From a virus (taxonomy: Duplodnaviria; Heunggongvirae; Uroviricota; Caudoviricetes), in the IMG/VR virus record IMGVR_UViG_3300015615_000629, positions 432,711 through 496,710 of that record: a DNA stretch of 64,000 bases; one strand, written 5' to 3'. The notes under the pieces are model-generated. The model was not told the origin of the DNA. It worked only from the letters and a program-made list of their open reading frames with translations, and did no database searches. Each line of letters starts with the position of its first letter. Position 1 is the stretch's first letter. This document shows positions 1 to 30,635 of the stretch, one piece after another. Made by a program: the position numbers and the translations under genes.

Positions 1-660
1 ATCTTCATCGAAACTTTAATTAGGCCGGCATCTGCAATGTTTTTGTCATAAGTAGCGATTGGGTAAATGACTTTGTTTTTAATGACTTTGTTTTTAATGC
101 TTTTGTCCGAATTGATCCCCATTTCTAATAGTTCGGATTCATTAAATACCAAATGAACAAAAGCTTTATTTATTTGTTGATATAAATGTCCACCATGCCG
201 GCCACACCAAGGATGACATCTTAAATAAATTCTACCATTGTTCGCTAATAAAGATTTGGCATCTTTTAAAACCTGAACAGGGTCTTGCGAATGGTCTAAG
301 ACATCATACATTAAAATAATGTCATATGGCCCTCCATTTTTAATTGTCTCTAAACAAATTGACAAAAGAAAATTTTCTTGCTTTGTTTCCCAAACAAAAT
401 TTCGAGAATTCTGAATGTCGTATCCTGCGGAAAAAAGTGCTTGGGATGAAGCATATTTTGCCATATGCCCTTCACCACAACCAAAATCTAGGAATTTTTT
501 ATCTTTTAAAGAGCCATCTATAATAAAGTCGATTACTCCTTCTGCTCTTTCTGTTTTGTCTGCCTCGGAATTTTCATCGCAGATTTGGGAGTCCGAAATG
601 GCTTTAGGCCAATCTTCTGACTTCAACAGTCTCTTTAATTCATCAAATTCTGTAACCATG
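1..660 (-). CDS. Class I SAM-dependent methyltransferase; ATG at 660, runs off the window start
   Basis: The reverse complement of 415-660 translates to ...DKKFLDFGCGEGHMAKYA... (motif I), followed by an acidic motif II, ILMYDVLDH. It is antisense to the spurious + ORF 415..738. No stop is reached before position 1. Confidence 0.65.
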
Positions 661-670
661 TCCACCTCTA

Positions 671-1318
671 TTATAGTTTGGGGTATAAAATATCTGTTCT
701 CTCAAAAACTTCCAACTTTCCGCCAACCGTGGCATTAAAAACTTTTCTGTTGTGTGCCTTGTAATGTTCATCAATGTCTTTGTATATTTGGAACGGCTTT
801 CTCCAATCAAATCTAGGAAAATTGTCGGCTTGGCTGCCATCAAAATGATGCTGGCCCGAGTAATCGCAATCACATCCAACAAGATAAACCGTTTTGAACC
901 CCATATAAAAAGCCACTTCCAAGCAAAAAGTTATAATTGTTACGCCTGCGAAAGCCCCATTTTTTAAACTCCCCCATCCTGTGTGTTTGTTTTTATTGAA
1001 AAAATCAAGAGCTGGTATTTGTATCGCATCCGGATGGAATTCTAACCCATGTTTGAAAAACACTAAGTTGTTATCTTTAACGAACTTAAGTATGCCTTCT
1101 TTGTGGTTTCTCCAAACAATCGGGTCTGAAACACAAAAGTAGGTGCCCTTCAAGCCAAAATTATTCTTATACAAACCATTCGTTAGAAAACATATTTTGT
1201 CCTTCAAAAACTCAATATTCGTATTGTTCAAAGAAGGCCCTGTTCCTAGAATAAAGCAAGTTTCTCCGGAATGTAAATTTTTAAATTTTTTCAATTTTGG
1301 ACAAAAAGGAAACAACAT
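671..1318 (-). CDS. DUF115/Maf-like (MptE-like fold) putative nonulosonic-acid glycosyltransferase
   Basis: Motifs CFILGTGPSL...FLTNG...GVTIITFCLEVAFYMGFKTVYLVGCDCDY are typical of PF01973 motility-accessory-factor-type transferases. ATG at 1318-1316 was chosen; the track's longer ORF to 1600 would overlap the conserved N-terminus of the divergent gene. Confidence 0.55.
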   Translation of the reverse strand: MLFPFCPKLKKFKNLHSGETCFILGTGPSLNNTNIEFLKDKICFLTNGLYKNNFGLKGTYFCVSDPIVWRNHKEGILKFVKDNNLVFFKHGLEFHPDAIQIPALDFFNKNKHTGWGSLKNGAFAGVTIITFCLEVAFYMGFKTVYLVGCDCDYSGQHHFDGSQADNFPRFDWRKPFQIYKDIDEHYKAHNRKVFNATVGGKLEVFERTDILYPKL

Positions 1319-1976
1319 GATTATCGCAATAGTTCCAATGAAGGAAAATAACGAGCGATTGCCCAACAAAAATACCCTATTGTTAGGCGATAAACCCCTC
1401 TGTTGGTATCTATTAAACTCCCTAAACAACTCAAAAGTAGATAAAATTATTGTGGATGCAAATGGAGACTCAATCGTAAAAGCCGTCCAATCCTTAAATT
1501 TGTCGAAGATAGAGATTAGCGTTCGCCCTCCAGAATATTGCGATCCAAAGCTCGGCGGAAACGAACTTCTTAAAAGATTCGAGATGAAGCCCGAAAACAC
1601 TTACCTGCAATGCCATGTAACTTCGCCTTTTGTCGGTTCAGGTGTAATCAATGATGGATTGGAGGAAATGGACGAGTCTTTGTTTTCAGTAACAAAAATT
1701 CATCAAAGAGCGTGGAACCTATATAGGGAACCTTTAAACCATACTATTAATGGGCCTACCCAAAGAACTCAGGATATGGAGCCCATCTTTGTGGAAAATG
1801 GAGCTTTCTTCATGTTTACTGGAAAATTCTTTTTAGAGAATCAAAAACGCAATACAGAAAAGAGTCAACGTCTCGTACTTTCCTATCCGGAAACCATAGA
1901 AATTGATTATTTAGAAGATTTAGAAACAGCAAAAGCATACATAATGTATGCAGAATTTATGGCTTCAAAGAGATAA
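1317..1976 (+). CDS. Acylneuraminate cytidylyltransferase family (CMP-nonulosonic acid / CMP-sugar synthetase)
   Basis: MIIAIVPMKENNERLPNKNTLLLGDKPLCWYL and LQCHVTSPF match the NeuA/KdsB-type CTP_transf_3 N-terminus and its TSP motif. An AAAGGA SD sits upstream. The start ATG 1317-1319 shares the CATG tetranucleotide with the divergent gene's start. Confidence 0.75.
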   Translation: MIIAIVPMKENNERLPNKNTLLLGDKPLCWYLLNSLNNSKVDKIIVDANGDSIVKAVQSLNLSKIEISVRPPEYCDPKLGGNELLKRFEMKPENTYLQCHVTSPFVGSGVINDGLEEMDESLFSVTKIHQRAWNLYREPLNHTINGPTQRTQDMEPIFVENGAFFMFTGKFFLENQKRNTEKSQRLVLSYPETIEIDYLEDLETAKAYIMYAEFMASKR

Positions 1977-2394
1977 AGCAGAAAGCGTAAGAGACCTGTT
2001 TTTCTCACTATTACCATTCGAAGATGATGCAGAAGAAAGAGATTTTTCAGATTTAGGAATTGAGAAAAATCTTTATTTAAAAGGAATTCAGTTTTATTGC
2101 GATATAACAGCAGGATTTGACTTTGACACATTAATCTGTGGTGAAGATTTCCTTAATCTGTTGGAATTAACTGGATTGCTTACAAAACAAGATGATAGAT
2201 TCATAACCCATCCAGATAGTATTGACTATATCTCCTATCATGGAACCATAAACGAATCTATTACCGCCGACGTTTATACCGTTGATCCCTACAGTGAAAT
2301 TGTTCACCTGGGAAGTGTCGGAGACACTAAACCCAAATTCTGGTCGTATGTTCGTGTTTCCAATATTCCGGATGTATATCGAAGGAAAAATTAA
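1948..2394 (+). CDS. Hypothetical protein
   Basis: ATG-initiated ORF that overlaps the previous stop by 29 nt. No motif recognised. Confidence 0.4.
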   Translation: MQNLWLQRDKAESVRDLFFSLLPFEDDAEERDFSDLGIEKNLYLKGIQFYCDITAGFDFDTLICGEDFLNLLELTGLLTKQDDRFITHPDSIDYISYHGTINESITADVYTVDPYSEIVHLGSVGDTKPKFWSYVRVSNIPDVYRRKN

Positions 2395-2398
2395 TGAA

Positions 2399-3517: not shown

Positions 3518-3572
3518 AAAATTGTAAGATCTAGCTGGATATATAAGGTGTCTAAAAAGGAATTTGACACCT

Positions 3573-4586
3573 ATGAAACCTAAAATTCTATTCATTTGCA
3601 AGAAAAGACTCAGCAGCTACGGAATTTCAGTCGGACTTTCAAATTCCGCTAAATTTGCTGCTAATTATTTAAATAAACACGGTATCGAAGCCAAAGTTGT
3701 CAACGTTGTCGATAACAACTGCATCGACCGTGAAGTAACCACCTATAACCCAACCCATGTAATTATTGAAGCTCTCTGGGTTGTGCCTCCTAAGTTTGAA
3801 ATCCTACTTCCTTTGCATAAAAATAGGAAGTGGTATGTCAGAATCCATAGTAAAGCCCCCTTCCTTGCCGGTGAAGGTATCGCTATGGATTGGATTAATG
3901 GTTATCGAGAAATTCACCAAAAACATAAGAACTTCCACATTTCCTGCAATAATTCAGAATTTAATGACGAATTAAACACCATTTTCCCAGACCTATGCAG
4001 CGTTTATCTGCCCAATGTCTACTGCGTCGAGGGAGAAGTTGAACAACATTGCCACCGCCATCACCACGATGTAAATATCGGTTGCTTCGGTGCTGTTAGA
4101 CCACTTAAAAACCAGTTAATTCAGGCTATGGCCGCTATCGCCTTCGCTGATGAAAATAACTTGAAACTTAAGTTTCACATGAACGGCGAAAGAATTGAAC
4201 ATGGTGAAAATATTATCAAAAATATTCGTGCTATGTTTGATGGAACCTGCCATAAATTAGTTGAACATCCTTGGATGCCGCATAATGAATTCCTTAAGTT
4301 GGTAGCCAAAATGGACTTAGGACTACAAGTAAGCCTTTCGGAAAGCTTTAATATTGTGAGTTCTGACTTTGTTCATTGTAACATCCCCCTTATTGTTTCA
4401 CCGGATATTTCTTGGATGCCTTGTATCTTCCAAGCCAATCCGAATTCAATGAAAAGTATTGTTTCAAAATTAAATTTCGCTTATTATACAAAAGACCTAT
4501 ATACCCACAAGGCAGCCAGCGTTGCCCTTTGGTGGTATAACCAAAAGGCCGGATTCGTCTGGCAAGATGTCCTTGGACTTTATTAA
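3573..4586 (+). CDS. Hypothetical protein; possible GT-B-like sugar-pathway enzyme
   Basis: The track begins at TTG 3564. The first ATG is at 3573, with AAAGGA upstream. N-terminal KILFICKK...YGISVG is reminiscent of a GT-B/PseG-like beta1-loop, but no decisive motif is present. Confidence 0.4.
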   Translation: MKPKILFICKKRLSSYGISVGLSNSAKFAANYLNKHGIEAKVVNVVDNNCIDREVTTYNPTHVIIEALWVVPPKFEILLPLHKNRKWYVRIHSKAPFLAGEGIAMDWINGYREIHQKHKNFHISCNNSEFNDELNTIFPDLCSVYLPNVYCVEGEVEQHCHRHHHDVNIGCFGAVRPLKNQLIQAMAAIAFADENNLKLKFHMNGERIEHGENIIKNIRAMFDGTCHKLVEHPWMPHNEFLKLVAKMDLGLQVSLSESFNIVSSDFVHCNIPLIVSPDISWMPCIFQANPNSMKSIVSKLNFAYYTKDLYTHKAASVALWWYNQKAGFVWQDVLGLY

Positions 4587-5200
4587 TGAGTTTCAGATTA
4601 TTTGTAGAGAAAACTTCTACATCCTATAGTTTTTCGTCGCTCCAATTCGACCTGCCGCAATTTCTGGCAGATAAAGTAATGGATTGGGGACAAAAACACA
4701 TCCCAGAAAAGAATGTCTTCACGGCCGAAAACAAATTTGGTCGTGAAGATAATATCCATCTTACCGTTCTCTACGGTATCCACGCCCAAGAACCACATAG
4801 AATTGTTAAGATTCTAAGAAGTTATCCTCAATTTAATATAAAGCTAGGCCCAATTTCACTTTTCACCACAGACGAACGTTTCGATGTTCTTAAAATCGAT
4901 GTCAAAAGTGAAGATTTAATGAAGTTAAATAAATTCATAAGAGACAGTATTCCGTACTCTACTAAGCATAAATCCTACCAACCACACATAACCATTGCCT
5001 ATATCAAAAAAGGCACCTGTAGGGATTTGGTAGGAAAACAGCCGTTCGATCAAGAGATAGAGGTTAAGAACCTTATCTTTAGTTCAAAGAACGGCTCAAA
5101 GAGCAAAATAAGGCTTACTAAGAGTAACTATTTACATGAAGCTTATATTGGCTATGGACTTAGTGAAAGACCAAATCAATGGTGTTTCAACTACAATTAA
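4586..5200 (+). CDS. 2H phosphoesterase superfamily protein (LigT / Acb1-like)
   Basis: Two H-x-T-x motifs, HLTVLYG and HITIAYI, lie about 90 aa apart, the hallmark of 2H cyclic phosphodiesterases. ATG at 4586. Confidence 0.6.
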   Translation: MSFRLFVEKTSTSYSFSSLQFDLPQFLADKVMDWGQKHIPEKNVFTAENKFGREDNIHLTVLYGIHAQEPHRIVKILRSYPQFNIKLGPISLFTTDERFDVLKIDVKSEDLMKLNKFIRDSIPYSTKHKSYQPHITIAYIKKGTCRDLVGKQPFDQEIEVKNLIFSSKNGSKSKIRLTKSNYLHEAYIGYGLSERPNQWCFNYN

Positions 5201-6137
5201 TGAACTAACTCCATACCTTAATGAACGTTTTGATGAAGTTAAAGTAATTTCCCCAAGCCTATTCAAAGTCTATAAGCCATATCTCTATCCGGAAGTCTCT
5301 CTGGCGTATGGTATTACAAATAGTAAACTTGCCGAAATAATTGGCCCAACTAAGTCCACCTGCATTCATATCTTTACGGAAGGCCCAATTGGACTTAAAG
5401 TTAGAAACTACTGCGTTAGAAATAAATTAAAATTTACAACTTCTTATCTCACACATTTTGCTGAACAGTTAAAGAACATTACGTACCTGCCAGAATGGCT
5501 CACATACGCCTATCTGCGTTGGTTTCATAGAGATTCCAACAAGATAATTGTGGCAACCAATACCATTAGAGACCATCTTAAAAGCAAGGGTTTCAAAAAT
5601 AAAATAGAACCATGTTCTAAAGGCGTAAACACCACGGTTTTTCATCCATATAAACGAGATAACACCACAAAGCCTTTAATCGCCTATGTGGGCAGGGTTT
5701 CTAAGGAAAAGAATATAGAAGCCTTCTTGGATTGTAAATTTGATTGTGATAAAGTAGTAATTGGCGATGGCCCATATAGAAAGACACTACAAAGCAACTA
5801 TCCGAATATTAAGTTCGTTGGTTATTTAAAAGGAAAGGATTTGGCTAAGGCATATTCCGATGCAGACGCAACTGTATTTCCTAGTTTAACTGATACCTTT
5901 GGTTTAACCATTATCGAATCGCTAGCATGCGGCACGCCCGTGGCGGCTTTTCCGGTAACTGGCCCTAAAGATATCTTAACTCCGGAAACCGGTGGTTTGG
6001 ATTGGGATATTGACGTAGCAATTTCCAAGGCTCTTAATTCCAATTCTCAGGATTGTATAGAATTGGCGGCTAAGTATTCATGGAGTGCTTGTGCAAATTG
6101 CTTCGTTAGAAACCTTATCATAACTAAAAATGGATGA
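5136..6137 (+). CDS. GT4-family (GT-B) glycosyltransferase
   Basis: VGRVSKEKN...VIGDGP...SDADATVFPSLTDTFGLTIIESLACGTPVAAF is the retaining GT-B E-X7-E region. ATG at 5136. Confidence 0.75.
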   Translation: MKLILAMDLVKDQINGVSTTINELTPYLNERFDEVKVISPSLFKVYKPYLYPEVSLAYGITNSKLAEIIGPTKSTCIHIFTEGPIGLKVRNYCVRNKLKFTTSYLTHFAEQLKNITYLPEWLTYAYLRWFHRDSNKIIVATNTIRDHLKSKGFKNKIEPCSKGVNTTVFHPYKRDNTTKPLIAYVGRVSKEKNIEAFLDCKFDCDKVVIGDGPYRKTLQSNYPNIKFVGYLKGKDLAKAYSDADATVFPSLTDTFGLTIIESLACGTPVAAFPVTGPKDILTPETGGLDWDIDVAISKALNSNSQDCIELAAKYSWSACANCFVRNLIITKNG

Positions 6138-6885: not shown

Positions 6886-6910
6886 ATAATAGTGAACATG
6901 GAGGTTCACT

Positions 6911-9364: not shown

Positions 9365-9426
9365 ATTTATTTTCTTCTCCTGTGTCTTATATTAGCACAC
9401 CTAAATTAAAAATCAACACATTTTTT

Positions 9427-9470
9427 ATAAAATTGTGTAAAATTCTATAAAATTGTATAAAATTTTACGA
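9427..9470. repeat. Imperfect 20-bp direct repeat, TATAAAATTGTGTAAAATTC / TATAAAATTGTATAAAATTT
   Basis: Read directly from the sequence. It gives four TATAAAAT (-10/late-promoter-like) cores in 44 bp, between divergent transcription units. Confidence 0.6.
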
Positions 9471-9523
9471 AAACCAGCACCAGTTCCCAGAAATCTTTAT
9501 TTATTTTAAGATGCTTAAATAAA

Positions 9524-9548
9524 ACTGGCACGCATAGTCCGCGTGCCA
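9524..9548 (+). promoter_or_regulatory. Perfect 9-bp stem / 7-nt loop hairpin (CTGGCACGC-atagtcc-GCGTGCCAG) directly abutting an AAAGGAG SD
   Basis: Read directly from the sequence. It is GC-rich within AT-rich DNA and ends 1 nt before the SD of the 23-aa ORF. Confidence 0.5.
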
Positions 9549-9561
9549 GAAAGGAGTTCAA

Positions 9562-9633: not shown

Positions 9634-9643
9634 GAATTAGGCT

Positions 9644-24543: not shown

Positions 24544-24920
24544 TTAACCTCTTGTCGCCCATGTGTTAAAGTTTTAAAGACACCCTTAACGTTTTCCATC
24601 CATGTGTTTGCCCAAGGTCCACGAAATGTTAAAACATAAGTTCTGCCAACACTGTTTACCTTATGAAAAGTATCACGTTTGGTAATAATAGGGAAAAGAG
24701 AAGGCTTATGTTCCTCTACCTCTCCGTCAAAGTGTTGTTCAACCAATTTGCCTGAAAATATCCAACTCACACAGTTGAAAGCATGGCTGTGATATGCTTC
24801 ACGTGTGCCATTTTCAAACCTGAGCAAGGCTATGCTAAATAAGGACTTAATTTCAACCAACCAAAAGCCCCAAACATACGATTCAGGGCCACCATCTTTA
24901 CCACGAGATAGTATTTTCAT
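24540..24920 (-). CDS. Hypothetical protein (possible small cupin / sugar ketoisomerase-like)
   Basis: HSHAFNCVSWIFSG resembles a cupin HxH...G metal site. It is adjacent to gmd. Confidence 0.3.
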   Translation of the reverse strand: MKILSRGKDGGPESYVWGFWLVEIKSLFSIALLRFENGTREAYHSHAFNCVSWIFSGKLVEQHFDGEVEEHKPSLFPIITKRDTFHKVNSVGRTYVLTFRGPWANTWMENVKGVFKTLTHGRQEVK

Positions 24921-25104
24921 TTTTTGTTCTCCATTTTAGACATTCAAGACTATAATCAAAAGTGTGATAAATAATAGTTGCCAATATAAAAAATGGCATA
25001 TCTCTCCATCCTAAATTATTAAATGTCCCACCACAATACAAAACCGCTACTATTACCAAAAAATTAAGCAAAAGGCTTCTTAGCAGGTTAATGAAGAATA
25101 TCAT
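24898..25104 (-). CDS. Small 2-TM membrane protein, paralog of 28777..28974
   Basis: Shares (A/T)V(L)YCGG.(F/I)N and LE(C/Y)(L/I)KW(R/T)K blocks with the other copy. Confidence 0.4.
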   Translation of the reverse strand: MIFFINLLRSLLLNFLVIVAVLYCGGTFNNLGWRDMPFFILATIIYHTFDYSLECLKWRTKNENTISW

Positions 25105-26033
25105 AAACTCTCATAAACCTTTCTATAAGACGCCGCACGTTCCTTACTAGAATGATCTTGAACCGTTCTAAACGCCTGATCTCGAATGGAATTCAGTCTA
25201 TCCCAATTGGCCAACGATTCTGTAATTCTAGTCTTAATTAACTCGACATCCTCATTGCTTCCCCTAATTAACTCCATGTTTTTGCCATTATACAAATCAG
25301 GTACATGCCCTACAAGACGAGATAATACAGGAATTCCACATGACATCGCTTCCAAAATAGGCATTGTGCCAGACTCAAAATTATCCACAGAATTACATAC
25401 ATGCAAAGTGGATTGGTGATAGTATTTAAGCAAATCCTTTTCTAAAACATCCTGATGAAAATCAACACTTCCCGTCTTTAAGACGCTGTTCATATAACCA
25501 CTATCAGAAATCCTTCCGACCAAACATAATCTTAAACCCAATTCCTTACACGCCTGTGCTACTTCCAAGACTCCCTTCTTCCCCTCAATTCTACTAACAG
25601 TCATGTTGATGATGTTACTGTTGGATAAATATGGCACCTTCTTGAAAGCCTCTAAATCAATACCCAAAGGGATGATTTCAGCACTAGGCAGTTCACTCTT
25701 TTGATAAGAATTTACTACAAAAACACGAAGATACTCCTCCCAAAGTTCTTCCTTGAGATTATAGGGATTGTAATGAGTTAAAATCTTCTTTTTGTTATCT
25801 GCCCAAAGTTCTGGAAATAGACTTTTAATCTTCGAAGCAGATTTCCAATACTGAGCATCGACAATATCTGCCCATTTTAGACCCTCCCGAGCCGCTTTCA
25901 TTTGGGCATCATCGGGCTTCTTAGGGTGAAAATAAAGAAGTTTGAAGTCTAAATCTTTATTGTATTTCTGAATGTCCAATGCAAGGGTAGTAATGGCCGT
26001 CTTGGGAGCGGGAACAATTTGTAATATTTTCAT
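25101..26033 (-). CDS. GT4-family (GT-B) glycosyltransferase
   Basis: NFESGTMPILEAMSCGIPVLS is the E-X7-E region. Confidence 0.7.
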   Translation of the reverse strand: MKILQIVPAPKTAITTLALDIQKYNKDLDFKLLYFHPKKPDDAQMKAAREGLKWADIVDAQYWKSASKIKSLFPELWADNKKKILTHYNPYNLKEELWEEYLRVFVVNSYQKSELPSAEIIPLGIDLEAFKKVPYLSNSNIINMTVSRIEGKKGVLEVAQACKELGLRLCLVGRISDSGYMNSVLKTGSVDFHQDVLEKDLLKYYHQSTLHVCNSVDNFESGTMPILEAMSCGIPVLSRLVGHVPDLYNGKNMELIRGSNEDVELIKTRITESLANWDRLNSIRDQAFRTVQDHSSKERAASYRKVYESL

Positions 26034-26455: not shown

Positions 26456-27460
26456 ATGAAAAAAGTATTATTCGGCCCGGTTTCAAACGCACCTTCCTGG
26501 GAATGGGTAGGTAAAGATATTGCAGAATCCCTAAAAACACACTACGAGGTAGAATTTTTTACGGATAAAATCACCCCAGCAGATGCTATTTTTGTAATAA
26601 AAAAGCCTCTTAACGCCGGACAACTAAGAGACACCCACGGCTCTAAAATCATCTACATTCCAGTGGATTATTTCACCAGCCACGGACACATCTACTCACA
26701 CCGCAAATTCCTGCAAAGTTGCTCCATAATAGGCGTACATTGCGATAAACTTAAATCTCATTTAGGCAAATTCGCTCTTACCCATAACGTAGAACATTAC
26801 CTAAAATACCCAATAAACCCTACCCCTTACAAAGAAAATGGCTTTGTCCTTTGGATCGGCGTCTATGAAACCTTACCTTTCTTCATAAAATACCTTCAAA
26901 CCAATCCAATTGCAAATGATATCAAAATTCTTACCAATCTCTCCAATAAAAGTGCCGTAGGAAGATCGCACAAATTCCAAGCCCATTACAACATAGACCT
27001 GAATAATATACCATTCAAACTTTATGACTGGACGCCTGAATTACAAGCCCAAATGATGTCCGAAGCCAAAGCGGCTATCGAAATCAAAGATGGGGACTTT
27101 ATAGGCTCTCATAAACCACCTACTAAAGCCCAACAATTCATTGCAAATGGCATCCCATTAGCCTGTAAGGGTTATTACGCAACTAATTATTTTAAAAAAT
27201 ATGGTTTTTCAATTCCGGAACCTAACGACTATTGGCTTTCCAAAAAATATTGGGAGAAAACCCAAGAAATGGCCAAAGTCTTAAGGAGAGACCTGTCTTT
27301 AGAAAATGTAAGAAATAAATATATTCAATTTATAGAAGCAAACGAGCCGCAAATTAAGACTACAACGGTTATAACTAAGGATTCAAAGATTAAAAAGAAC
27401 GCACTTACAATGGAACAATGGAAAAGGATTCGGCGATCTTTGAAGCAACGTGGCGGTTAA
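26456..27460 (+). CDS. Conserved hypothetical protein, paralog of 16948..17883
   Basis: See the paralog for the shared blocks. ATG at 26456. Confidence 0.5.
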   Translation: MKKVLFGPVSNAPSWEWVGKDIAESLKTHYEVEFFTDKITPADAIFVIKKPLNAGQLRDTHGSKIIYIPVDYFTSHGHIYSHRKFLQSCSIIGVHCDKLKSHLGKFALTHNVEHYLKYPINPTPYKENGFVLWIGVYETLPFFIKYLQTNPIANDIKILTNLSNKSAVGRSHKFQAHYNIDLNNIPFKLYDWTPELQAQMMSEAKAAIEIKDGDFIGSHKPPTKAQQFIANGIPLACKGYYATNYFKKYGFSIPEPNDYWLSKKYWEKTQEMAKVLRRDLSLENVRNKYIQFIEANEPQIKTTTVITKDSKIKKNALTMEQWKRIRRSLKQRGG

Positions 27461-28250
27461 GCATATGCCCAGTTCGATAACCAGTTATTTTTCCTTCTAA
27501 TCTACAGCCCAACAACCCAAAATCTCCAATCATATCCAATACTTTATGTCTGGCAATTTCATTATCAGTCTTCATTTCTACCAAAAACTTATCCGTGTAA
27601 ATGATATAAGGGCTTTTCGAACAGTTTTTAGGCAATAATTTAAATTCCTTACGTTTCTTCTCCCACAATTTTCCTTCTTCGTCTAAAGGATAATGCAAAC
27701 AAGTCCTGCTCCAAGAGATTTCTTTCCTGTAAATCAATGGATCAATGGTAAAACCTGCAACTTGTGTCCCTAAAGCATTATCATAATCCATTACAGCAGA
27801 CATGGTTATACCGGAAACTGGAGAAGGCTCTACTTCAATATGTTTGTCATTTAAGTAAAACTTCTTTCTCTCCGAAATTCTTATTAAATTAACTGGTTTT
27901 TGAATTTCTAAAAAACCAGTTTTAGAAATTATTCGTGTAAAAATATCAGAACTAGCACAGAAGGGAACTTCCTCTTGATCTAATTCGATTAAAATATTAT
28001 CCAATCCAAGGCCGTATATGGCAGATAACAGGTGTTCAGTCATAATAACGCGAACACCATCTTTTTTAAGCGTTGTAGTCAAACCTACTTCTTCATGATC
28101 TATAAACTCCAACAAGGCTGGAATAAAGGTATCTTTTACCTTAAAAACAACGCCATTGTCATGAGGATGACAATGCATGGCTATTTTCTTCCCGCTTCTT
28201 AAGGCTCGTCCTTTAAGAGTAAACGAAGAAGATAGTGTGGTTTGTTTCAT
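27405..28250 (-). CDS. LpxC-family zinc deacetylase (UDP-3-O-acyl-GlcNAc deacetylase-like)
   Basis: MKQTTL...GRALRSGKKIAMHCHP...VRVIMTEHLLSAIYGLGLDNILIELDQEEVPF...HKVLDMIGDFGLLG...GYRTGHMLNRHV. This aligns along its whole length with E. coli LpxC, including the HKxLD and GH.LN motifs. Confidence 0.75.
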   Translation of the reverse strand: MKQTTLSSSFTLKGRALRSGKKIAMHCHPHDNGVVFKVKDTFIPALLEFIDHEEVGLTTTLKKDGVRVIMTEHLLSAIYGLGLDNILIELDQEEVPFCASSDIFTRIISKTGFLEIQKPVNLIRISERKKFYLNDKHIEVEPSPVSGITMSAVMDYDNALGTQVAGFTIDPLIYRKEISWSRTCLHYPLDEEGKLWEKKRKEFKLLPKNCSKSPYIIYTDKFLVEMKTDNEIARHKVLDMIGDFGLLGCRLEGKITGYRTGHMLNRHVASKIAESFSIVPL

Positions 28251-28756
28251 TTGGCAAAAATTCCCATCTTATTCTTGCCAGCAAATACGTTTAACTCCCA
28301 AGGATAAAGACTAGAGAATTCTTCATAAGTCCAACCGGAAATATGTTGTTCATTAATGTTGTCATAATGAATTTTTGCTGGACGGATTTCGCCGGAATTT
28401 TCACTTAAAGGGACAGATACAACCACATGATTATATCTGTTTAAGGCTTTAGAAAGAATTTCTTCGGCATCTTGTTTAGGAAGATGCTCAAGAATATCGC
28501 CGAAGATTATGCAGTCAGCAGTAGGTAATTCGACGAAACGAATGTCGCCGATAATGATTCTCTCGTAATACTGCTTTAGATTAAACTGCTCTACGTAAGG
28601 CTCCCAGATTTCAATAGCTATATAATGATATTCTGGGCCTAACAGGCGTGGATAGGTAGCAGAACCAGCCCCAACATCAACAATATACTTAATATCTGGC
28701 TGCTTCTGTAACCACTCTTTAATCTCTTGTTTACCTTGAACTACACTTCCTGGCAT
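28247..28756 (-). CDS. Class I SAM-dependent methyltransferase
   Basis: IVDVGAGSA motif I and IIFGDILEHL motif II/III. Confidence 0.6.
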   Translation of the reverse strand: MPGSVVQGKQEIKEWLQKQPDIKYIVDVGAGSATYPRLLGPEYHYIAIEIWEPYVEQFNLKQYYERIIIGDIRFVELPTADCIIFGDILEHLPKQDAEEILSKALNRYNHVVVSVPLSENSGEIRPAKIHYDNINEQHISGWTYEEFSSLYPWELNVFAGKNKMGIFAK

Positions 28757-28974: not shown

Positions 28975-29188
28975 TTTTAAATAAAACCCAAGAAAGGAAA
29001 AGATACATTATACAACAAATTACGCACGATATAACTAGTTTTAAAGATACACTGCCCTCGGAAAAATAGGTAATCGCCAACGCAAATATCAAAAGCATCT
29101 CAAAACGAATTACCAGAGACATTATCGAATTTATATTAAAAAGAGATTCTGGTGCTTCTCCAAAATATTGATAAGGATTATCTTCCAT
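28946..29188 (-). CDS. Small 2-TM membrane protein
   Basis: Overlaps its neighbours by 29 nt and 11 nt. Confidence 0.3.
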   Translation of the reverse strand: MEDNPYQYFGEAPESLFNINSIMSLVIRFEMLLIFALAITYFSEGSVSLKLVISCVICCIMYLFLSWVLFKIDNYDKKQN

Positions 29189-29381
29189 CTGATCGTTTAA
29201 GAAATCTTAAATCCAAGGTAAGGAAAAAAGCGAACAAGAGCAATTGTAACATAAATGTTGACAAATTCGAGCCGAGTATAAAGAATGAAAAGATCATTCC
29301 TATAACACAGCCAATAGCAAAGGGAAATTTCAGCCAAATATCGAAAAGGTATTTCATTTTAAACCTTTCTTTTAAAAACAA
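29178..29381 (-). CDS. Small 2-TM membrane protein
   Basis: Hydrophobic ORF. Confidence 0.3.
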   Translation of the reverse strand: MFLKERFKMKYLFDIWLKFPFAIGCVIGMIFSFFILGSNLSTFMLQLLLFAFFLTLDLRFLKRSDGR

Positions 29382-29587
29382 TGACCGCTATCTATCGCTT
29401 CATAGAATCTATCGAGAAATTGAATCGGACTTACTCGCGAAGGATAAACGTAATAAATATCACTCGGCGAAGGCGGCTTAACCCATTTAGGGGAAATGGA
29501 ATCAACTTTTGTTGTTCCACTTCGCAATAATAACGATGCAGGTAACATCGATATTAAACCAGATATAAATGAACGTCTTGTGAGCAT
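29372..29587 (-). CDS. Small protein with a Tat-like N-terminus (TRRSFISG)
   Basis: AAGAAGG SD before ATG 29587. An S/T-R-R-x-F-L-like motif is followed by a hydrophobic stretch and ASLL. Confidence 0.35.
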   Translation of the reverse strand: MLTRRSFISGLISMLPASLLLRSGTTKVDSISPKWVKPPSPSDIYYVYPSRVSPIQFLDRFYEAIDSGHCF

Positions 29588-29639
29588 TTTACCTTCTTAA
29601 GATATTTATACATTAAATTAGAAGTCTCCATATACCTCC

Positions 29640-30635
29640 TTATATTTCCTTTACATAATTAATCACACCAAACATTTTACTTCCTTCACGTAATAGCTTC
29701 CTAATCATACATGTCCTCGACGGCAAATCCACCATGAAAGGTGAGAAAACATATCCATTGAGATAGTAATCAGATTTGGGCTTTGCTACAATTAATACCT
29801 TGTCTTTTGGCATATATGTCGAAGTGTATTCTAAAGAATCCGTCGAACCGCCAGATAAAACAAACTTATCCTCATGGAGTAGCACCTTGATTAAACAATC
29901 ATGATTGTCAGGATGCGTTAAAATACTAAAAGATAATTCTTCCTTATCAATATTGGTTTTTTCTAATATCTTCGCTTTTACAGAGTCAATCATGTTGCGA
30001 AGAGATGCATTACGAGTTATATGAAATTCTGTATCGAAAAGACTGTTCTCAGGACATGTATAATGATAAACCGTCCCACTCCAATTGATTAAATCTTCAA
30101 TCAAAAGCTTGTTTAACTCATCTATACCAGCGTCATATATGCCACAACAATAATTTTCACTCTCAAAAACCCATTTGTCACCTCTGTCCCTCTTGTAAAA
30201 AATAAGACCATTTTGATCAACAAGCGGAGTACAACCTAAAAGGTATGGACTGATTATTTGCGACAATTTAGATTTAATCCTGTCTATATCAAAATCCGTC
30301 TCAAGAAATTCGCTAAAACTCTTTTGATTCTCCAATATTATTGCCACACATTGCTCAGTCCAAATTCCACAGGATAAATCTGCTTTATCTTTCCACTTGC
30401 TATGAATCGCCTCTACTTCTCGCTCTGCCAAATATTTGTAATAATCTATCGGCCAGTAAAAAACAGATCTCTCATACTTCTCATTATTCATGAAATCAAA
30501 AATTACTTTTTGATTATACCTCCGATGCCCACCCTCCGTCTTAATTACCTTTAACTTGTCATCCCACTTCCTCAATGTCTGAGGTGAAACTTGCAATAAA
30601 GTTGCAACGTCCTTTAATGTCAATAATTGCTCCAT
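29640..30635 (-). CDS. MerR/excisionase-type HTH DNA-binding protein with a large C-terminal domain
   Basis: LTLKDVATLLQVSPQTLRKWDDKLKVIKTEGGHRRY is an HTH_17/MerR N-terminal signature. Confidence 0.55.
   Translation of the reverse strand: MEQLLTLKDVATLLQVSPQTLRKWDDKLKVIKTEGGHRRYNQKVIFDFMNNEKYERSVFYWPIDYYKYLAEREVEAIHSKWKDKADLSCGIWTEQCVAIILENQKSFSEFLETDFDIDRIKSKLSQIISPYLLGCTPLVDQNGLIFYKRDRGDKWVFESENYCCGIYDAGIDELNKLLIEDLINWSGTVYHYTCPENSLFDTEFHITRNASLRNMIDSVKAKILEKTNIDKEELSFSILTHPDNHDCLIKVLLHEDKFVLSGGSTDSLEYTSTYMPKDKVLIVAKPKSDYYLNGYVFSPFMVDLPSRTCMIRKLLREGSKMFGVINYVKEI

What the first reader, a model, noticed from the sequence alone, without database searches (positions are those of the whole stretch)
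1..30000. 30-kb glycan biosynthesis/modification island in a T4-type phage
Glycan-pathway genes are packed almost contiguously across the first 30 kb. They include a CMP-nonulosonic acid synthetase, a Maf-like transferase, GDP-mannose 4,6-dehydratase and a truncated UDP-sugar dehydrogenase. There are at least six GT2/GT4 glycosyltransferases and a sulfotransferase. The cluster also carries a CE4 deacetylase, LpxC-like and LpxH-like enzymes, a class-III aminotransferase, three SAM methyltransferases and a secreted thioredoxin-like protein. T4-type phages normally carry at most one or two DNA glucosyltransferases. This has the gene content of a complete heteropolysaccharide or lipo-oligosaccharide pathway, with sulfation, methylation and de-N-acetylation. 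Candidate roles are glycosylation of virion proteins, seroconversion of the host surface, or DNA hypermodification, given the two DNA methyltransferases and the nucleases also present. Nothing in the sequence distinguishes these.
Basis: partly seen in the sequence, partly recalled or inferred. Interest (0 to 1): 0.75.

Follow-up and report, generated by a model that had tools for sequence, protein, structure and literature searches.

The report
Sugar-enzyme gene clusters in a huge phage
A very large T4-like phage (about 0.57 Mb) carries two clusters of about 20 sugar-handling genes copied from bacterial cell-surface pathways; they probably redecorate the infected cell's surface or the virus particle, which is a known habit of big T4-like phages with some new enzymes here.

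Summary
The gene list is real. HMM, fold and homologue evidence support 19 glycan-related genes, plus 2 candidates. They include 8 glycosyltransferase-like proteins (plus one weak candidate), GDP-mannose dehydratase, a CMP-ulosonic-acid synthetase paired with a sialyltransferase/Maf-fold transferase, LpxC-like and LpxH-like enzymes, a CE4 deacetylase, a sulfotransferase-like protein and SAM methyltransferases.

They are not contiguous. There are two clusters (1-6,885 and 15,197-28,756) separated by 8.3 kb of phage backbone and selfish elements. The class-III aminotransferase is lysine-6-transaminase-like and belongs to that backbone.

The DNA is phage, not host. Composition is uniform, T4-type head genes adjoin it, its proteins map to a 572-kb contig, and its nearest relative is the 595-kb phage LR756511.1, where no homologue of the island's other glycan genes lies next to the head module or the GMD gene.

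It is not a complete pathway. There is no initiating transferase, flippase, polymerase, ligase or exporter, and every enzyme is soluble.

Large T4-like cyanophages already carry up to 13 glycosyltransferases, GMD and LpxH-like genes, so the kind is known. New here are a divergent LpxC, the sialyltransferase-type module, and an unannotated GT-B family linked to TOD1/MUCI70.

The most likely role is decoration of host lipid-linked envelope glycans (0.45). Virion glycosylation is the main rival (0.28). DNA hypermodification is unlikely.

The parts
3..665 (-). SAM methyltransferase (C-terminus lies beyond the window edge). It is part of the ulosonic-acid module.
   Evidence: Methyltransf_23 E 5e-13. 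A 41%-identical homologue co-occurs with the MptE-like and CTP_transf_3 homologues on phage-like contigs L006/L007.
671..1318 (-). 215-aa MptE-like/DUF115 protein with a sialyltransferase/Maf fold. It is the candidate CMP-ulosonic-acid transferase.
   Evidence: PF01973 E 1e-12. The family profile hits Cst-II GT42 sialyltransferase at E 9e-6 and Maf 5mu5 at E 0.004. The AF2 model has pLDDT 89.5; Foldseek top hits are Maf (E 2e-6), then the pterin kinase MptE/HPPK (8sd5, E 1e-4), then Cst-II, Cst-I and ST6GALNAC2. A 100%-identical protein lies on a 572,167-bp JGI contig.
1317..1976 (+). CMP-ulosonic-acid (NeuA/PseF/KdsB-type) cytidylyltransferase.
   Evidence: CTP_transf_3 E 7e-14. PseF is the best NCBIfam model, below its cut-off. 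NeuA gives the best PDB hits. The gene is paired with the MptE-like gene in L006-L010.
3564..4586 (+). Candidate GT-B-like protein (weak evidence).
   Evidence: Only a phrog_2170 'glycosyltransferase' hit at E 1e-3. Homologues at 39-45% identity occur in jumbo Ralstonia phages RsoM2USA and phiRSL1, annotated as hypothetical.
5136..6137 (+). GT4 glycosyltransferase.
   Evidence: Glycos_transf_1 E 3.5e-19 and Glyco_transf_4 E 5.5e-10.
6130..6885 (+). LpxH-like metallophosphoesterase. It overlaps the stop codon of the GT4 gene.
   Evidence: Metallophos E 2e-13. NCBIfam LpxH 50.9 bits, below the cut-off of 134. The best PDB hits are LpxH 5k8k/5b49 over the full length. Homologues occur in Pelagibacter phage Mosig, Synechococcus phage S-SRM01 and LR756511.1.
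15197..16951 (+). Two-domain glycosyltransferase: GT2 fused to TOD1/MUCI70.
   Evidence: PF00535 E 2e-21 and PF04765 E 1e-26. The TOD1 part is 40-49% identical to bacterial genes that precede family X.
16948..17883 (+). Family X copy 1: an unannotated glycosyltransferase-like protein with a GT-B fold.
   Evidence: 36% identical to copy 2, E 5e-69. No Pfam, PHROG or PDB-sequence hit. The fold of copy 2 is GT-B. The conserved gene order is TOD1 then X.
17861..18547 (+). GT2 glycosyltransferase.
   Evidence: PF00535 E 6e-13.
18547..19233 (+). Short NDP-sugar dehydrogenase-like protein lacking the C-terminal domain.
   Evidence: TIGR03026 E 3e-7. UDPG_MGDP_dh E 2.5e-3. GxGxxG and GGHC motifs are seen in the sequence.
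19230..20042 (+). Divergent GT2-like glycosyltransferase.
   Evidence: No direct Pfam hit. 28 of 60 homologues hit PF00535 (best E 6.5e-17), and D92/D94 are near-invariant.
20039..20560 (+). Small sulfotransferase-like protein.
   Evidence: Sulfotransfer_3 E 5e-4, below the cut-off. 5'-PSB-like GFPRSATS and 3'-PB-like LRDPKEAALS motifs are seen by eye.
20532..21407 (+). GT4-like glycosyltransferase (weak evidence).
   Evidence: Glycos_transf_1 E 1e-5, Glyco_trans_1_4 E 3e-5 and Glyco_transf_4 E 3e-4. All three are just under their gathering scores.
21397..22014 (+). CE4 polysaccharide de-N-acetylase.
   Evidence: Polysacc_deac_1 E 1.4e-16.
22011..22535 (+). SAM methyltransferase. It overlaps the stop codon of the CE4 gene.
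   Evidence: Methyltransf_23 E 2e-8.
23557..24543 (-). GDP-mannose 4,6-dehydratase.
   Evidence: PF16363 E 1e-107. TIGR01472 352.6 bits against a cut-off of 415. About 47-49% identical to the GMD of cyanophages and huge phages.
24540..24920 (-). 126-aa cupin translationally coupled to GMD. It may act on a 4-keto-6-deoxy sugar (inference).
   Evidence: phrog_4786 E 2e-18. No Pfam or PDB-sequence hit. An HxH cupin motif is seen in the sequence.
25101..26033 (-). GT4 glycosyltransferase.
   Evidence: Glycos_transf_1 E 1.7e-12.
26456..27460 (+). Family X copy 2: GT-B fold.
   Evidence: The AF2 model has pLDDT 88.4 and pTM 0.82. Foldseek top hits are SenB, SdgB, Gtf3, GtfC and AviGT4, with E down to 2e-9 and TM about 0.6. 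Only 13 homologues were found in the 5.8-billion-protein index.
27405..28250 (-). Divergent LpxC-family zinc deacetylase.
   Evidence: PF03331 E 1e-49. TIGR00325 118 bits, below the cut-off of 187. E-H, HKxxD..D and the distal H are conserved against P. aeruginosa LpxC. The nearest homologues are only 30-31% identical and are ordinary bacterial lpxC genes.
28247..28756 (-). SAM methyltransferase-like gene. It lies upstream of, and overlaps, the LpxC-like gene.
   Evidence: Methyltransf_23 E 8.5e-6, 26 bits against a cut-off of 27.
6886..15196 (.). Non-glycan spacer between the two clusters. It carries a CAP-domain protein, a DUF262/HNH nuclease, a LAGLIDADG endonuclease, a lysine-6-transaminase-like aminotransferase, a membrane-anchored thioredoxin and a Dam methylase.
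   Evidence: The aminotransferase, LAGLIDADG endonuclease, Dam methylase and the 14933-15193 ORF are conserved in LR756511.1.

Best explanation
**What it is (shown).** The first ~29 kb of the window is a variable accessory arm of a roughly 0.57-Mb phage with T4-type head genes. It lies beside the head-morphogenesis module.

It carries two clusters of soluble, cytoplasmic glycan enzymes. These fall into sub-modules whose closest relatives sit in bacterial surface-polysaccharide loci:
1. A CMP-ulosonic-acid synthetase, a 215-aa sialyltransferase/Maf-fold transferase and a methyltransferase.
2. A GT4 and an LpxH-like phosphoesterase.
3. A tightly packed nine-gene operon: GT2-TOD1/MUCI70, GT-B family X, GT2, a short NDP-sugar dehydrogenase-like protein, a GT2-like protein, a sulfotransferase-like protein, a GT4-like protein, a CE4 deacetylase and a methyltransferase.
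4. A cupin and GMD with a GT4; a second copy of family X; and a methyltransferase with a divergent LpxC.

**How it most likely works (inferred).** The island makes at least two activated sugars: a GDP-6-deoxyhexose precursor and a CMP-ulosonic acid. It then uses 8-9 transferases plus de-N-acetylation, methylation and sulfation to extend and cap an acceptor that it cannot itself initiate, flip, polymerise or export.

The most likely acceptors are the host's own lipid-linked envelope glycans, meaning lipid A/core, LOS, or O-antigen or capsule intermediates at the cytoplasmic face of the inner membrane of a diderm host. The infected cell's surface would then be re-decorated. The probable payoff is receptor masking or superinfection exclusion and envelope maintenance during a long infection.
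For: **Gene identities:**

**Phage, not host:**
- gp23 major capsid protein, gp21-type protease, gp20 portal and TerL are adjacent.
- The capsid protein is 70% identical to that of the 595-kb phage LR756511.1, with a syntenic head module.
- Island proteins map at 100% identity to one 572,167-bp contig.
- Composition is uniform.

**Add-on rather than complete pathway:** no transmembrane segment in any enzyme and no multi-pass membrane protein in 1-29 kb. No PGT, Wzx, Wzy, WaaL or ABC family appears in any Pfam scan.

**Envelope target:**
- LpxC and LpxH are families known only from lipid A synthesis. The LpxC-like protein keeps all catalytic residues, and its nearest relatives are canonical lpxC genes next to lpxK/waaA or fabZ-lpxA.
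- The transferase family matches the LOS sialyltransferases Cst-II and Cst-I by sequence profile better than it matches Maf.
- In a Chloroflexota MAG, the MptE-like/CTP_transf_3 pair sits beside a Wzt O-antigen ABC ATPase and a KdsA-type synthase.
- The TOD1-X pair sits in a Phycisphaerae polysaccharide locus with an ABC exporter. It recurs in 16 of 28 diderm genomes.
- Neighbouring phage genes encode envelope-directed proteins: CAP and thioredoxin with signal anchors, an SPFH lipoprotein, MscL and DUF3568.

**Precedent:** T4-like cyanophages carry comparable gene sets, interpreted as host-surface modification (PMC12801897). Huge phages encode surface-directed proteins proposed to affect superinfection (PMC7162821).
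Against: - No experiment exists for this or any comparable phage cluster. The acceptor is inferred only.
- Soluble GTs are equally compatible with cytoplasmic protein glycosylation.
- By fold, the best hit of the transferase is Maf, a protein glycosyltransferase. Many top structural neighbours of family X are protein O-glycosyltransferases such as SdgB, Gtf3 and GtfC.
- The island abuts the head genes.
- The LpxC-like protein is only 30% identical to any LpxC. Its insert-II (acyl-tunnel) stretch is divergent and charged, and the LpxC-like and LpxH-like genes are 20 kb apart without lpxA/D/B. Both may therefore be re-purposed.
- The related phage LR756511.1 has no homologue of the island's other glycan genes beside its head module or its GMD gene. 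Only GMD and a 26%-identical LpxH-like gene were found, at other loci. The cluster is therefore dispensable for the lineage.
- Only about 11% of the genome is visible.
Confidence: 0.45

Rival explanations
1. **Virion protein glycosylation.** The soluble GTs, including the Maf-fold transferase and the GT-B family X, glycosylate capsid, tail or fibre proteins in the cytoplasm with a methylated or sulfated oligosaccharide capped by an ulosonic acid. This would be analogous to mycobacteriophages and giant viruses, and would shield the particle or mediate adhesion.
For: - All enzymes are soluble and no export machinery is present.
- The island lies about 8 kb from the major capsid gene.
- The top fold hit of the 215-aa transferase is Maf, a flagellin O-glycosyltransferase.
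- Structural neighbours of family X include the protein O-GTs SdgB, Gtf3 and GtfC.
- In a 271-kb contig the same MptE-like/CTP_transf_3 pair lies near an STT3/AglB oligosaccharyltransferase.
- Phage virion glycosylation is documented in the literature: Freeman et al. 2023, as cited in PMC12619734 and PMC12801897.
Against: - The protein lacks the N- and C-terminal domains of Maf (215 aa against about 630). By sequence profile it is nearer the LOS sialyltransferases.
- LpxC-like and LpxH-like enzymes have no known role in protein glycosylation.
- Bacterial homologues of both conserved modules sit in polysaccharide/ABC-transporter loci.
- No acceptor motif or Ser/Thr-rich extension was identified on a structural protein. 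This was not systematically tested.
- The T4 late-promoter motif is not enriched, so co-expression with structural genes could not be shown.
Confidence: 0.28
2. **No single target.** The arm is a mosaic of independently acquired auxiliary genes that act on different substrates: a lipid A flux booster, nucleotide-sugar pool manipulation, and separate small glycan modifications. Some genes may be decaying.
For: - The clusters are split by 8.3 kb of backbone and selfish elements.
- Genes lie on both strands in at least six transcription blocks.
- The related phage LR756511.1 has only GMD and an LpxH-like gene, at other loci.
- Several members are truncated or score below family cut-offs: the dehydrogenase-like, sulfotransferase-like and GT4-like proteins.
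- GMD lacks a partner reductase in the window.
Against: - Nine glycan genes from 15,197 to 22,535 are co-directional with overlapping stops and starts, which argues for one operon and one product.
- The module orders GT2-TOD1-X-GT2 and MptE-like/CTP/MT are conserved elsewhere.
- All ORFs are intact.
Confidence: 0.17
3. **DNA hypermodification.** The GTs attach sugars to hydroxymethylated bases of phage DNA, as with T4 Agt/Bgt or the MT+TET+GT clusters of Pyle et al.
For: - Phage GTs related to LPS enzymes have been shown to glycosylate 5hmC (bioRxiv 10.1101/2023.12.21.572611).
- Two DNA methyltransferases and a DUF262/HNH nuclease are present in the window.
Against: - Both methyltransferases are N6-adenine or N4/N6 types, not C5.
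- No TET/5mYOX, dCMP/dUMP hydroxymethylase, or Agt/Bgt family appears in any of the 70 window ORFs scanned against Pfam.
- Sulfotransferase, CE4, LpxC/LpxH and CMP-ulosonic-acid enzymes have no precedent in DNA modification.
- The absence covers only 64 of about 572 kb.
Confidence: 0.05
4. **Host DNA, a prophage/host junction, or an assembly chimera** rather than phage genes.
For: Most island genes have their closest characterised relatives in bacteria.
Against: - GC is 0.36-0.40 and tetranucleotide correlation is 0.88-0.98 across all window segments, against 0.3-0.55 to the bacterial loci L012/L013 that carry the TOD1-X pair.
- Phage backbone genes shared with LR756511.1, homing endonucleases and a TerL paralogue are interleaved with the glycan genes.
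- Identity to the bacterial homologues detected is only about 22-49%.
- The contig length of 572 kb is close to that of the 595-kb relative.
Confidence: 0.02

Closest known systems
Cell-surface/LPS gene clusters of large T4-like cyanomyoviruses (P-SSM2, S-SCSM1, S-SCSM2R, S-SRM01; Kyanoviridae)
   Same: - T4-type head genes.
- Many soluble GTs (up to 13), GMD or sugar epimerases, CMP-Kdo-type synthetases, LpxH-like genes and Dam.
- No export machinery.
- Function is unproven and usually read as host-surface modification (PMC12801897).
   Different: - The genome is 2-3 times larger and the capsid protein is only about 30% identical.
- The gene families differ: there is no GT11 or GT25.
- Present here but absent, or present only as contaminants, among 50,697 phage records: an LpxC homologue, a sialyltransferase/Maf-fold transferase, a NeuA/PseF-like synthetase and GT-B family X.
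Huge phage LR756511.1 (595 kb, Al-Shayeb et al. 2020 data set)
   Same: - Capsid protein 70% identical.
- Syntenic primase-TerL-portal-protease-capsid module.
- Shared aminotransferase, Dam, LAGLIDADG endonuclease and 2H phosphoesterase.
- It also has GMD and an LpxH-like gene.
   Different: Its GMD and LpxH-like genes lie at other loci. No homologue of the other island genes was found within about 70 kb of the capsid gene or 20 kb of GMD.
Campylobacter LOS sialyltransferases Cst-I/Cst-II (GT42) with NeuA
   Same: - A sialyltransferase-fold domain with an N-terminal GxGPS motif.
- Similar size, about 215-290 aa.
- Partnered with a CMP-sugar synthetase.
   Different: - Only remote similarity (E 9e-6 by profile, 17-18% identity by fold).
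- The sugar and the acceptor are unknown.
- No NeuB/NeuC genes are in the window.
Maf flagellin nonulosonic-acid glycosyltransferases
   Same: Central MptE-like domain. Maf is the top fold hit (5mu5, E 2e-6).
   Different: - Lacks Maf's N- and C-terminal domains (215 aa against 632-666).
- No flagellar context.
- Sequence-profile similarity is weaker than to GT42.
Raetz lipid A enzymes LpxC and LpxH
   Same: Full-length family matches. The LpxC catalytic Glu-His, HKxxD..D and distal His are conserved, and LpxH metallophosphoesterase motifs are present.
   Different: - Both score below the NCBIfam equivalog cut-offs.
- The LpxC-like protein is 30% identical at best, with a divergent insert II.
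- No lpxA/D/B/K genes are nearby, and the genes are phage-encoded.
Mycobacteriophage virion glycosylation cassettes and giant-virus glycan machinery (chlorovirus GMD, mimivirus)
   Same: Virus-encoded soluble GTs and nucleotide-sugar enzymes without export genes, located near structural genes.
   Different: No sequence relationship was shown, and no glycosylated acceptor has been identified here. The inferred host is a diderm bacterium.
Phage DNA sugar-hypermodification clusters (T4 Agt/Bgt; MT+5mYOX+GT clusters of Pyle et al.)
   Same: Phage GTs of LPS-enzyme ancestry, with DNA methyltransferases nearby.
   Different: The window has no C5-MT, TET/5mYOX, base hydroxymethylase or Agt/Bgt family.

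Membership tests
T4-like (gp23-lineage) myovirus | gp23-type major capsid protein, gp20 portal and gp21 prohead protease in one module | tested here: met
   PF07068 E 2e-84, PF07230 E 6e-71 and PF03420 E 4e-26. The module is syntenic with LR756511.1.
T4-like (gp23-lineage) myovirus | T4-type late promoter TATAAATA upstream of late genes | tested here: not met
   3 matches against 6.2 expected, and none upstream of head genes.
Self-sufficient surface polysaccharide/LOS pathway (Wzx/Wzy or ABC type) | Initiating phosphoglycosyltransferase (WecA/WbaP type) | tested here: not met
   No such Pfam family and no multi-pass membrane protein in 1-29 kb. The rest of the 572-kb genome was not visible.
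Self-sufficient surface polysaccharide/LOS pathway (Wzx/Wzy or ABC type) | Flippase or ABC exporter, polymerase, ligase | tested here: not met
   None found in the window.
Maf flagellin glycosyltransferase | Central MptE-like/sialyltransferase-fold domain | tested here: met
   PF01973 E 1e-12. Foldseek top hit is 5mu5 at E 2e-6.
Maf flagellin glycosyltransferase | Multi-domain architecture of about 600 aa with N- and C-terminal substrate-binding domains | tested here: not met
   The protein is 215 aa, and the gene caller of the source contig agrees. TM-score normalised to Maf is 0.24.
GT42-type CMP-sialic-acid transferase | Sequence and fold similarity to Cst-I/Cst-II, with the N-terminal nucleotide-binding G-x-G-P-S motif | tested here: met
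   Profile hit to 2x63 at E 9e-6. Fold hits to 1ro8 and 2p56. T26-G27-P28-S29 are invariant in 49 homologues.
GT42-type CMP-sialic-acid transferase | Catalytic His and activity with a CMP-nonulosonate donor | not testable with these tools
   Needs residue-level structural superposition and an enzyme assay.
CMP-nonulosonic/Kdo synthetase (NeuA/PseF/KdsB) | CTP_transf_3 domain above the Pfam threshold | tested here: met
   52.5 bits against a cut-off of 22.6.
CMP-nonulosonic/Kdo synthetase (NeuA/PseF/KdsB) | Equivalog-level assignment to one sugar (Pse, Neu5Ac, Leg or Kdo) | tested here: not met
   PseF 55.7 bits against a cut-off of 205.7. KdsB about 19 bits.
LpxC (UDP-3-O-acyl-GlcNAc deacetylase) | Full-length LpxC domain with zinc ligands and catalytic Glu/His | tested here: met
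   170 bits over profile positions 1-267 of 268. EH, HKxxD..D and GH align with P. aeruginosa LpxC.
LpxC (UDP-3-O-acyl-GlcNAc deacetylase) | Equivalog score and conserved acyl-chain tunnel (insert II) | tested here: not met
   TIGR00325 118.4 bits against a cut-off of 187.25. The insert-II stretch aligns poorly and is charged.
LpxH (UDP-2,3-diacylglucosamine diphosphatase) | Metallophosphoesterase core plus the LpxH-specific insertion, aligned over the full length | tested here: inconclusive
   The best PDB hits are LpxH over residues 6-241 at E 1e-7. NCBIfam gives 50.9 bits against a cut-off of 134.
GDP-mannose 4,6-dehydratase | GDP_Man_Dehyd domain over the full length | tested here: met
   360.7 bits. 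TIGR01472 gives 352.6 bits, slightly under its equivalog cut-off of 415.
Phage DNA sugar-hypermodification cluster | Source of a hydroxymethylated base (dNMP hydroxymethylase, or C5-MT plus TET/5mYOX) near the GTs | tested here: not met
   None among the 70 window ORFs scanned against Pfam. Only 64 of about 572 kb were visible.
Phage DNA sugar-hypermodification cluster | Agt/Bgt-type DNA glucosyltransferase | tested here: not met
   No such Pfam family was hit.
Virion glycosylation cassette | Glycan detected on a structural protein, or a recognisable acceptor extension | not testable with these tools
   Needs virions and mass spectrometry. Acceptor motifs were not systematically searched.
GT-B glycosyltransferase superfamily (family X) | Two Rossmann-like domains with a GT-B topology | tested here: met
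   pLDDT 88.4. 86 PDB matches at E<=1e-3, and all 50 listed are GT-B-fold proteins, nearly all glycosyltransferases.

The most novel reading that the evidence does not exclude
Two readings would be new, and either or both could hold.

1. The island gives a huge, T4-like phage of a Gram-negative host a self-encoded glycan coat on its virion proteins. The coat would be a sulfated, methylated oligosaccharide capped with a sialic-acid-like sugar. That would be the first such case outside actinobacteriophages and giant eukaryotic viruses.
2. The divergent phage LpxC/LpxH pair lets the phage take over the committed step of lipid A synthesis.

Separately, family X together with TOD1/MUCI70 would define a previously unrecognised two-component glycosyltransferase system in diderm bacteria.
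Probability: 0.25. Interest if true: 0.7.

Novelty: new variant of a known kind. Interest (0 to 1): 0.45.

Why it matters
Glycan gene clusters are common in large T4-like and huge phages, yet none has an experimentally established target. This example is unusually rich, with 8-9 transferases plus sulfation, methylation and two de-N-acetylases.

It adds enzyme families that are essentially unseen among 50,697 deposited phage genomes. These are an LpxC homologue, a sialyltransferase/Maf-fold transferase with its CMP-sugar synthetase, and a new GT-B family.

If the acceptor is the host envelope, this would be a lytic-phage route to serotype or receptor change. If the acceptor is the virion, it would extend phage glycosylation to huge phages of diderm hosts.

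The TOD1/MUCI70-family X pairing is also a concrete lead for annotating bacterial polysaccharide loci.

Tried and rejected
**Finding the source or close relatives**
- Megablast of 1-25,000 against phages found no match.
- An exact 40-mer search of viral contigs found nothing.
- The search for related loci found no relatives with the LpxC-like protein or GT2-TOD1 in viral contigs, or with the MptE-like protein in metagenome contigs.
The capsid protein is found only on ~3-kb JGI contigs. The left boundary of the island therefore remains unknown.

**Expression timing**
- The T4 late-promoter motif is not enriched.
- Sigma-70 and terminator scans were at background. No early or late assignment could be made.

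**Assigning individual ORFs**
- PDB sequence searches of family X, the 3564-4586 ORF, the cupin and the single MptE-like sequence found nothing.
- hhalign of 3564-4586 against family X was negative.
- The methyltransferases are not close paralogues, so a duplicated 'deacetylase + methyltransferase' cassette is rejected.

**Readings rejected**
- The class-III aminotransferase as a sugar aminotransferase: it is LAT-like, and sugar aminotransferases belong to the DegT family.
- A prophage/host junction.

**Literature:** searches for phage-encoded LpxC or nonulosonic acids on virions found nothing relevant.

Full report
**1. What the window is**

ORF calling and Pfam scans place a T4-type head module on the right side of the finding. 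It comprises:
- a gp23 major capsid protein at 36,442-37,884(-), E 2e-84;
- a prohead protease at 38,854-39,570(-);
- a gp20 portal interrupted by an intein at 44,227-46,767(-);
- a large terminase at 47,885-49,690(-);
- a primase at 62,687-63,694.

The capsid protein is 70% identical to that of LR756511.1, a 595-kb 'uncultured phage' record. All cultured T4-like phages are near 30%. The whole primase-to-capsid module is syntenic with that record.

Three island proteins are each 100% identical to proteins recorded on a single JGI contig of 572,167 bp. These are the MptE-like protein, family X copy 2 and the LpxC-like protein. The window is therefore about 11% of a huge phage genome, not an ordinary 170-kb T4-type phage.

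GC is 0.36-0.40 throughout. Tetranucleotide profiles of all window segments correlate at 0.88-0.98. Phage backbone genes, homing endonucleases and a TerL paralogue are interleaved with the glycan genes.

**2. Checking the observation**

Four Pfam calls over the 38 larger ORFs of 1-30 kb, plus NCBIfam, confirm most of the named classes.

*Strong:*
- MptE-like, 671-1318(-)
- CTP_transf_3, 1317-1976(+)
- GT4, 5136-6137
- Metallophosphoesterase, 6130-6885. Its best PDB and NCBIfam matches are LpxH over the full length.
- GT2 fused to TOD1/MUCI70, 15197-16951
- GT2, 17861-18547
- CE4, 21397-22014
- GMD, 23557-24543(-), 361 bits
- GT4, 25101-26033(-)
- LpxC, 27405-28250(-), 170 bits
- Two clear SAM methyltransferases, plus one marginal

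*Weak but plausible:*
- A short NDP-sugar dehydrogenase-like protein at 18547-19233. It has GxGxxG and GGHC motifs but no C-terminal domain.
- A 173-aa sulfotransferase-like protein at 20039-20560 with both PAPS-binding motifs.
- A GT4-like protein at 20532-21407.

*Three ORFs with no direct Pfam hit were resolved:*
- 19230-20042 has 225 relatives in the 1.84-billion representative set. Of 60 sampled, 28 match Glycos_transf_2, and a DxD motif is near-invariant.
- 16948-17883 and 26456-27460 are paralogues (36% identity, E 5e-69). They belong to a family with only 13 indexed relatives and no annotation. The AlphaFold model (pLDDT 88.4, pTM 0.82) is an unambiguous GT-B fold. Its top PDB neighbours are SenB, SdgB, Gtf3, GtfC, AviGT4 and BshA.

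The count is thus 8 GT-like proteins carrying 9 GT-like domains, plus one weak candidate at 3564-4586.

*Corrections to the observation:*
1. The genes form two clusters, not one continuous 30-kb island. The 19 genes cover 53% of 1-28,756 and 85% of 15,197-28,756. The 8.3 kb between 6,886 and 15,196 holds no glycan gene.
2. The class-III aminotransferase scores 463 bits on the L-lysine 6-transaminase model. It is 50% identical to a gene of LR756511.1 that sits in a backbone block with a Dam methylase and a LAGLIDADG endonuclease and no glycan genes. Sugar aminotransferases belong to the DegT family. It should be removed from the pathway.
3. The 'Maf-like' protein is only 215 aa.

**3. Anatomy and origin of the modules**

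*Module 1 (3-1976).*
- The 215-aa MptE-like gene and the 219-aa cytidylyltransferase are divergent. Their start codons overlap at CATG, 1316-1319.
- Their closest relatives (47% and 42% identity) lie on phage-like ENA contigs that also encode a PhoH with a LAGLIDADG insertion. There the two genes are co-directional and accompanied by a homologue of the 3-665 methyltransferase.
- The pair recurs in a Chloroflexota MAG beside a Wzt O-antigen ABC ATPase, a KdsA-family synthase and O-methyltransferases. It also recurs in a 271-kb contig with GT2s, a SIS isomerase and an STT3/AglB homologue.
- A profile of 49 family members hits the Campylobacter LOS sialyltransferases Cst-II (E 9e-6) and Cst-I, and Maf (E 0.004).
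- The predicted structure (pLDDT 89.5) finds Maf first, then the archaeal pterin kinase MptE/HPPK, then Cst-II, Cst-I and human ST6GALNAC2.
- The consistent reading is 'activate an ulosonic acid with CTP and transfer it'. Which sugar is involved is undetermined: PseF 56 bits, NeuA the best PDB hit, KdsB 19 bits, all below equivalog cut-offs.

*Module 2 (5136-6885).*
- A GT4 gene whose stop overlaps the start of the LpxH-like gene.
- LpxH-like homologues exist in the T4-like Kyanoviridae phages Mosig (37%) and S-SRM01 (32%). In S-SRM01 the gene lies about 6 kb downstream of a run of fucosyltransferase, GT2 and GT25 genes. LR756511.1 also has one (26%).

*Module 3 (15,197-22,535).*
- Nine co-directional genes with overlapping stops and starts.
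- The order GT2 / TOD1-MUCI70 / X / GT2 is reproduced in a JGI contig. TOD1-X adjacency is found in a Phycisphaerae polysaccharide locus with an ABC exporter, a GT10 and a GMD-like SDR.
- A scan of species-representative genomes found family X in 28 genomes. Every one with a phylum-level assignment is from a diderm phylum.
- A TOD1 homologue lies within 4 kb in 16 of the 28, and directly upstream in 11.

*Module 4 (22,902-28,756).*
- A GT4, a small membrane ORF, and a 126-aa cupin translationally coupled to GMD.
- Unexpectedly, a 220-aa stand-alone paralogue of the TerL ATPase domain (31% identity, E 1e-39).
- Family X copy 2.
- A methyltransferase overlapping the LpxC-like gene.

*The LpxC-like protein.*
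- It conserves the Glu-His pair, the HKxxD..D zinc/catalytic motif and the distal His of P. aeruginosa LpxC. The stretch corresponding to insert II, which forms the acyl tunnel, is divergent and charged.
- Its nearest relatives are only 30-31% identical. They are ordinary bacterial lpxC genes next to lpxK/waaA or fabZ-lpxA.

**4. What is missing**

- None of the enzymes has a predicted transmembrane segment. The only hydrophobic ORFs in 1-29 kb are small, or are signal-anchored CAP and thioredoxin proteins.
- No phosphoglycosyltransferase, Wzx, Wzy, WaaL, Wzm/Wzt or other exporter family appears in any scan.
- GMD has no partner reductase in the window, and the synthetase has no NeuB/KdsA partner.
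- The cluster therefore cannot, from what is visible, initiate, flip, polymerise or export a glycan. 'Complete pathway' is not supported. The left boundary lies beyond the window and 89% of the genome is unseen.

**5. Mechanism**

The committed reading is that these soluble enzymes supply activated sugars and extend, cap and decorate an acceptor made by something else.

*Evidence favouring host lipid-linked envelope glycans:*
- two lipid-A-specific families with intact catalytic residues;
- profile similarity of the transferase to LOS sialyltransferases;
- both conserved modules having bacterial counterparts in ABC-transporter polysaccharide loci;
- a neighbourhood rich in envelope-directed phage proteins, namely an SPFH lipoprotein with an LAGC lipobox, MscL, DUF3568, CAP and thioredoxin;
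- the standing interpretation of similar clusters in T4-like cyanophages (PMC12801897) and of surface-directed proteins in huge phages (PMC7162821).

*Evidence favouring virion glycosylation:*
- soluble enzymes without export genes;
- proximity to the head genes;
- Maf and protein O-GTs among the structural neighbours;
- an STT3 homologue near the same module elsewhere.

I rate these readings 0.45 and 0.28. A mosaic with several targets rates 0.17.

DNA hypermodification rates 0.05:
- the two DNA methyltransferases are N6A/N4 types;
- no C5-MT, TET/5mYOX, base hydroxymethylase or Agt/Bgt family is present in the window;
- the known DNA-glycan clusters require such a base source (bioRxiv 10.1101/2023.12.21.572611).

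**6. Comparison with what is known, and novelty**

The kind is known:
- GMD occurs in 89 phage records, including P-SSM2, the ACG-2014f cyanophages and the 735-kb and 595-kb huge phages.
- S-SCSM2R carries 22 cell-wall genes, including 13 GTs and KdsA/KdsB (PMC12801897).
- Glycosyltransferases and a UDP-sugar SDR are among the ten most abundant structural clusters of huge phages (bioRxiv 10.1101/2025.02.27.640493).

The premise that T4-type phages carry at most one or two GTs holds for T-even coliphages only.

What is unusual is the enzyme set:
- LpxC homologues occur in only 5 of 50,697 phage records. The three annotated matches are ordinary lpxC genes, one of them on a Salmonella contig, which points to bacterial contamination. 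The two short unannotated faecal contigs were not examined.
- The MptE-like protein has no match.
- The synthetase has one match, a bacterial contaminant.
- Family X has no match.
- The related phage LR756511.1 has no homologue of the island's other glycan genes within about 70 kb of its capsid gene or 20 kb of its GMD. The rest of its 595 kb was not scanned for most of them. On this evidence the cluster is a lineage-specific acquisition in a variable arm.

I file it as a new variant of a known kind.

**7. Verdict**

It is a phage glycan island with an unknown target. It overstates completeness, contiguity and exceptionality.
- Interest is moderate at 0.45.
- The most useful by-products are the sialyltransferase-type module, the divergent phage LpxC, and the TOD1/MUCI70-family X pairing as leads for experiment.

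Noticed in passing
window 16948-17883 and 26456-27460; loci L012, L013, L019-L046: An unannotated GT-B-fold protein family ('X'). It is present twice in the phage and in 28 species-representative genomes, and every one with a phylum-level assignment is from a diderm phylum. A TOD1/MUCI70 (DUF616) gene lies within 4 kb in 16 of the 28, directly upstream in 11. This is a candidate two-component glycosyltransferase system.
   Followed up: yes
window 22902-23564 (-): A stand-alone 220-aa paralogue of the large-terminase ATPase domain. It is 31% identical to TerL residues 74-289 (E 1e-39), lacks a nuclease domain, and is translationally coupled to the GMD gene.
   Followed up: partly
window 44227-46767 (-): The T4-type portal protein (gp20) is interrupted by an intein. 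An Intein_splicing domain spans residues 153-332, ahead of the Portal_T4 domain at 348-719.
   Followed up: no
window 4586-5200 (+): A 2H phosphoesterase with a near-threshold Acb1 (anti-CBASS) match. It is 42% identical to a gene of LR756511.1 that lies between TerL and the portal gene.
   Followed up: partly
window 7907-9364 (-): A 485-aa DUF262 (GmrSD_N)-HNH nuclease. It matches PADLOC NsnA at E 2e-10 and sits in the spacer between the glycan clusters. It may be a homing endonuclease or an anti-competitor nuclease.
   Followed up: partly
window 10750-12006 (+): An L-lysine 6-transaminase-like class-III aminotransferase (463 bits). It is conserved at 50% identity in LR756511.1 and overlaps the stop of a LAGLIDADG endonuclease gene (10197-10763). 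It looks like an amino-acid-metabolism gene whose role in the phage is unknown.
   Followed up: partly
window 1316-1319: The start codons of the divergent MptE-like (-) and cytidylyltransferase (+) genes overlap in a CATG palindrome. This leaves no intergenic space for promoters. In relatives the two genes are co-directional.
   Followed up: partly
window 59120-60214 (-): An intact TnpB (IS605 OrfB / Cas12f-like TNB) gene inside the phage genome. A 30%-identical copy with a Y1 transposase sits on contig L013 next to the TOD1-X module.
   Followed up: no
window 31572-32417 (-), 55234-55782 (-), 57206-57646 (-), 6911-7543 (+), 12678-13232 (+), 49853-51471 (+): A concentration of host-like envelope and stress genes. 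They are an SPFH/Band-7 lipoprotein (LAGC lipobox), MscL, DUF3568, a signal-anchored CAP-domain protein, a membrane-anchored thioredoxin, an M28 peptidase and a ferritin-like protein.
   Followed up: partly
window 3564-4586 (+): A 340-aa protein with 39-45% identical 'hypothetical' homologues only in the jumbo Ralstonia phages RsoM2USA and phiRSL1 among phage records. It has a weak PHROG glycosyltransferase hit.
   Followed up: partly
window 12003-12677 (-): A 224-aa Gln/Pro/Met/Thr-rich low-complexity protein with no family match. It is conceivably a glycosylation substrate or a structural linker.
   Followed up: no
window 36384-36421: A perfect 17-bp-stem bidirectional terminator immediately downstream of the major capsid gene. 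It is followed by the best sigma-70-like promoter in the region (TTGTCA-16-TATAAT, 36379-36352, minus strand).
   Followed up: no
window 61887-62657 (-) and 32643-33500 (+): A Cas4-like PD-(D/E)XK nuclease next to the primase (53% identical in LR756511.1), and an inosine-uridine-type nucleoside hydrolase homologue.
   Followed up: no
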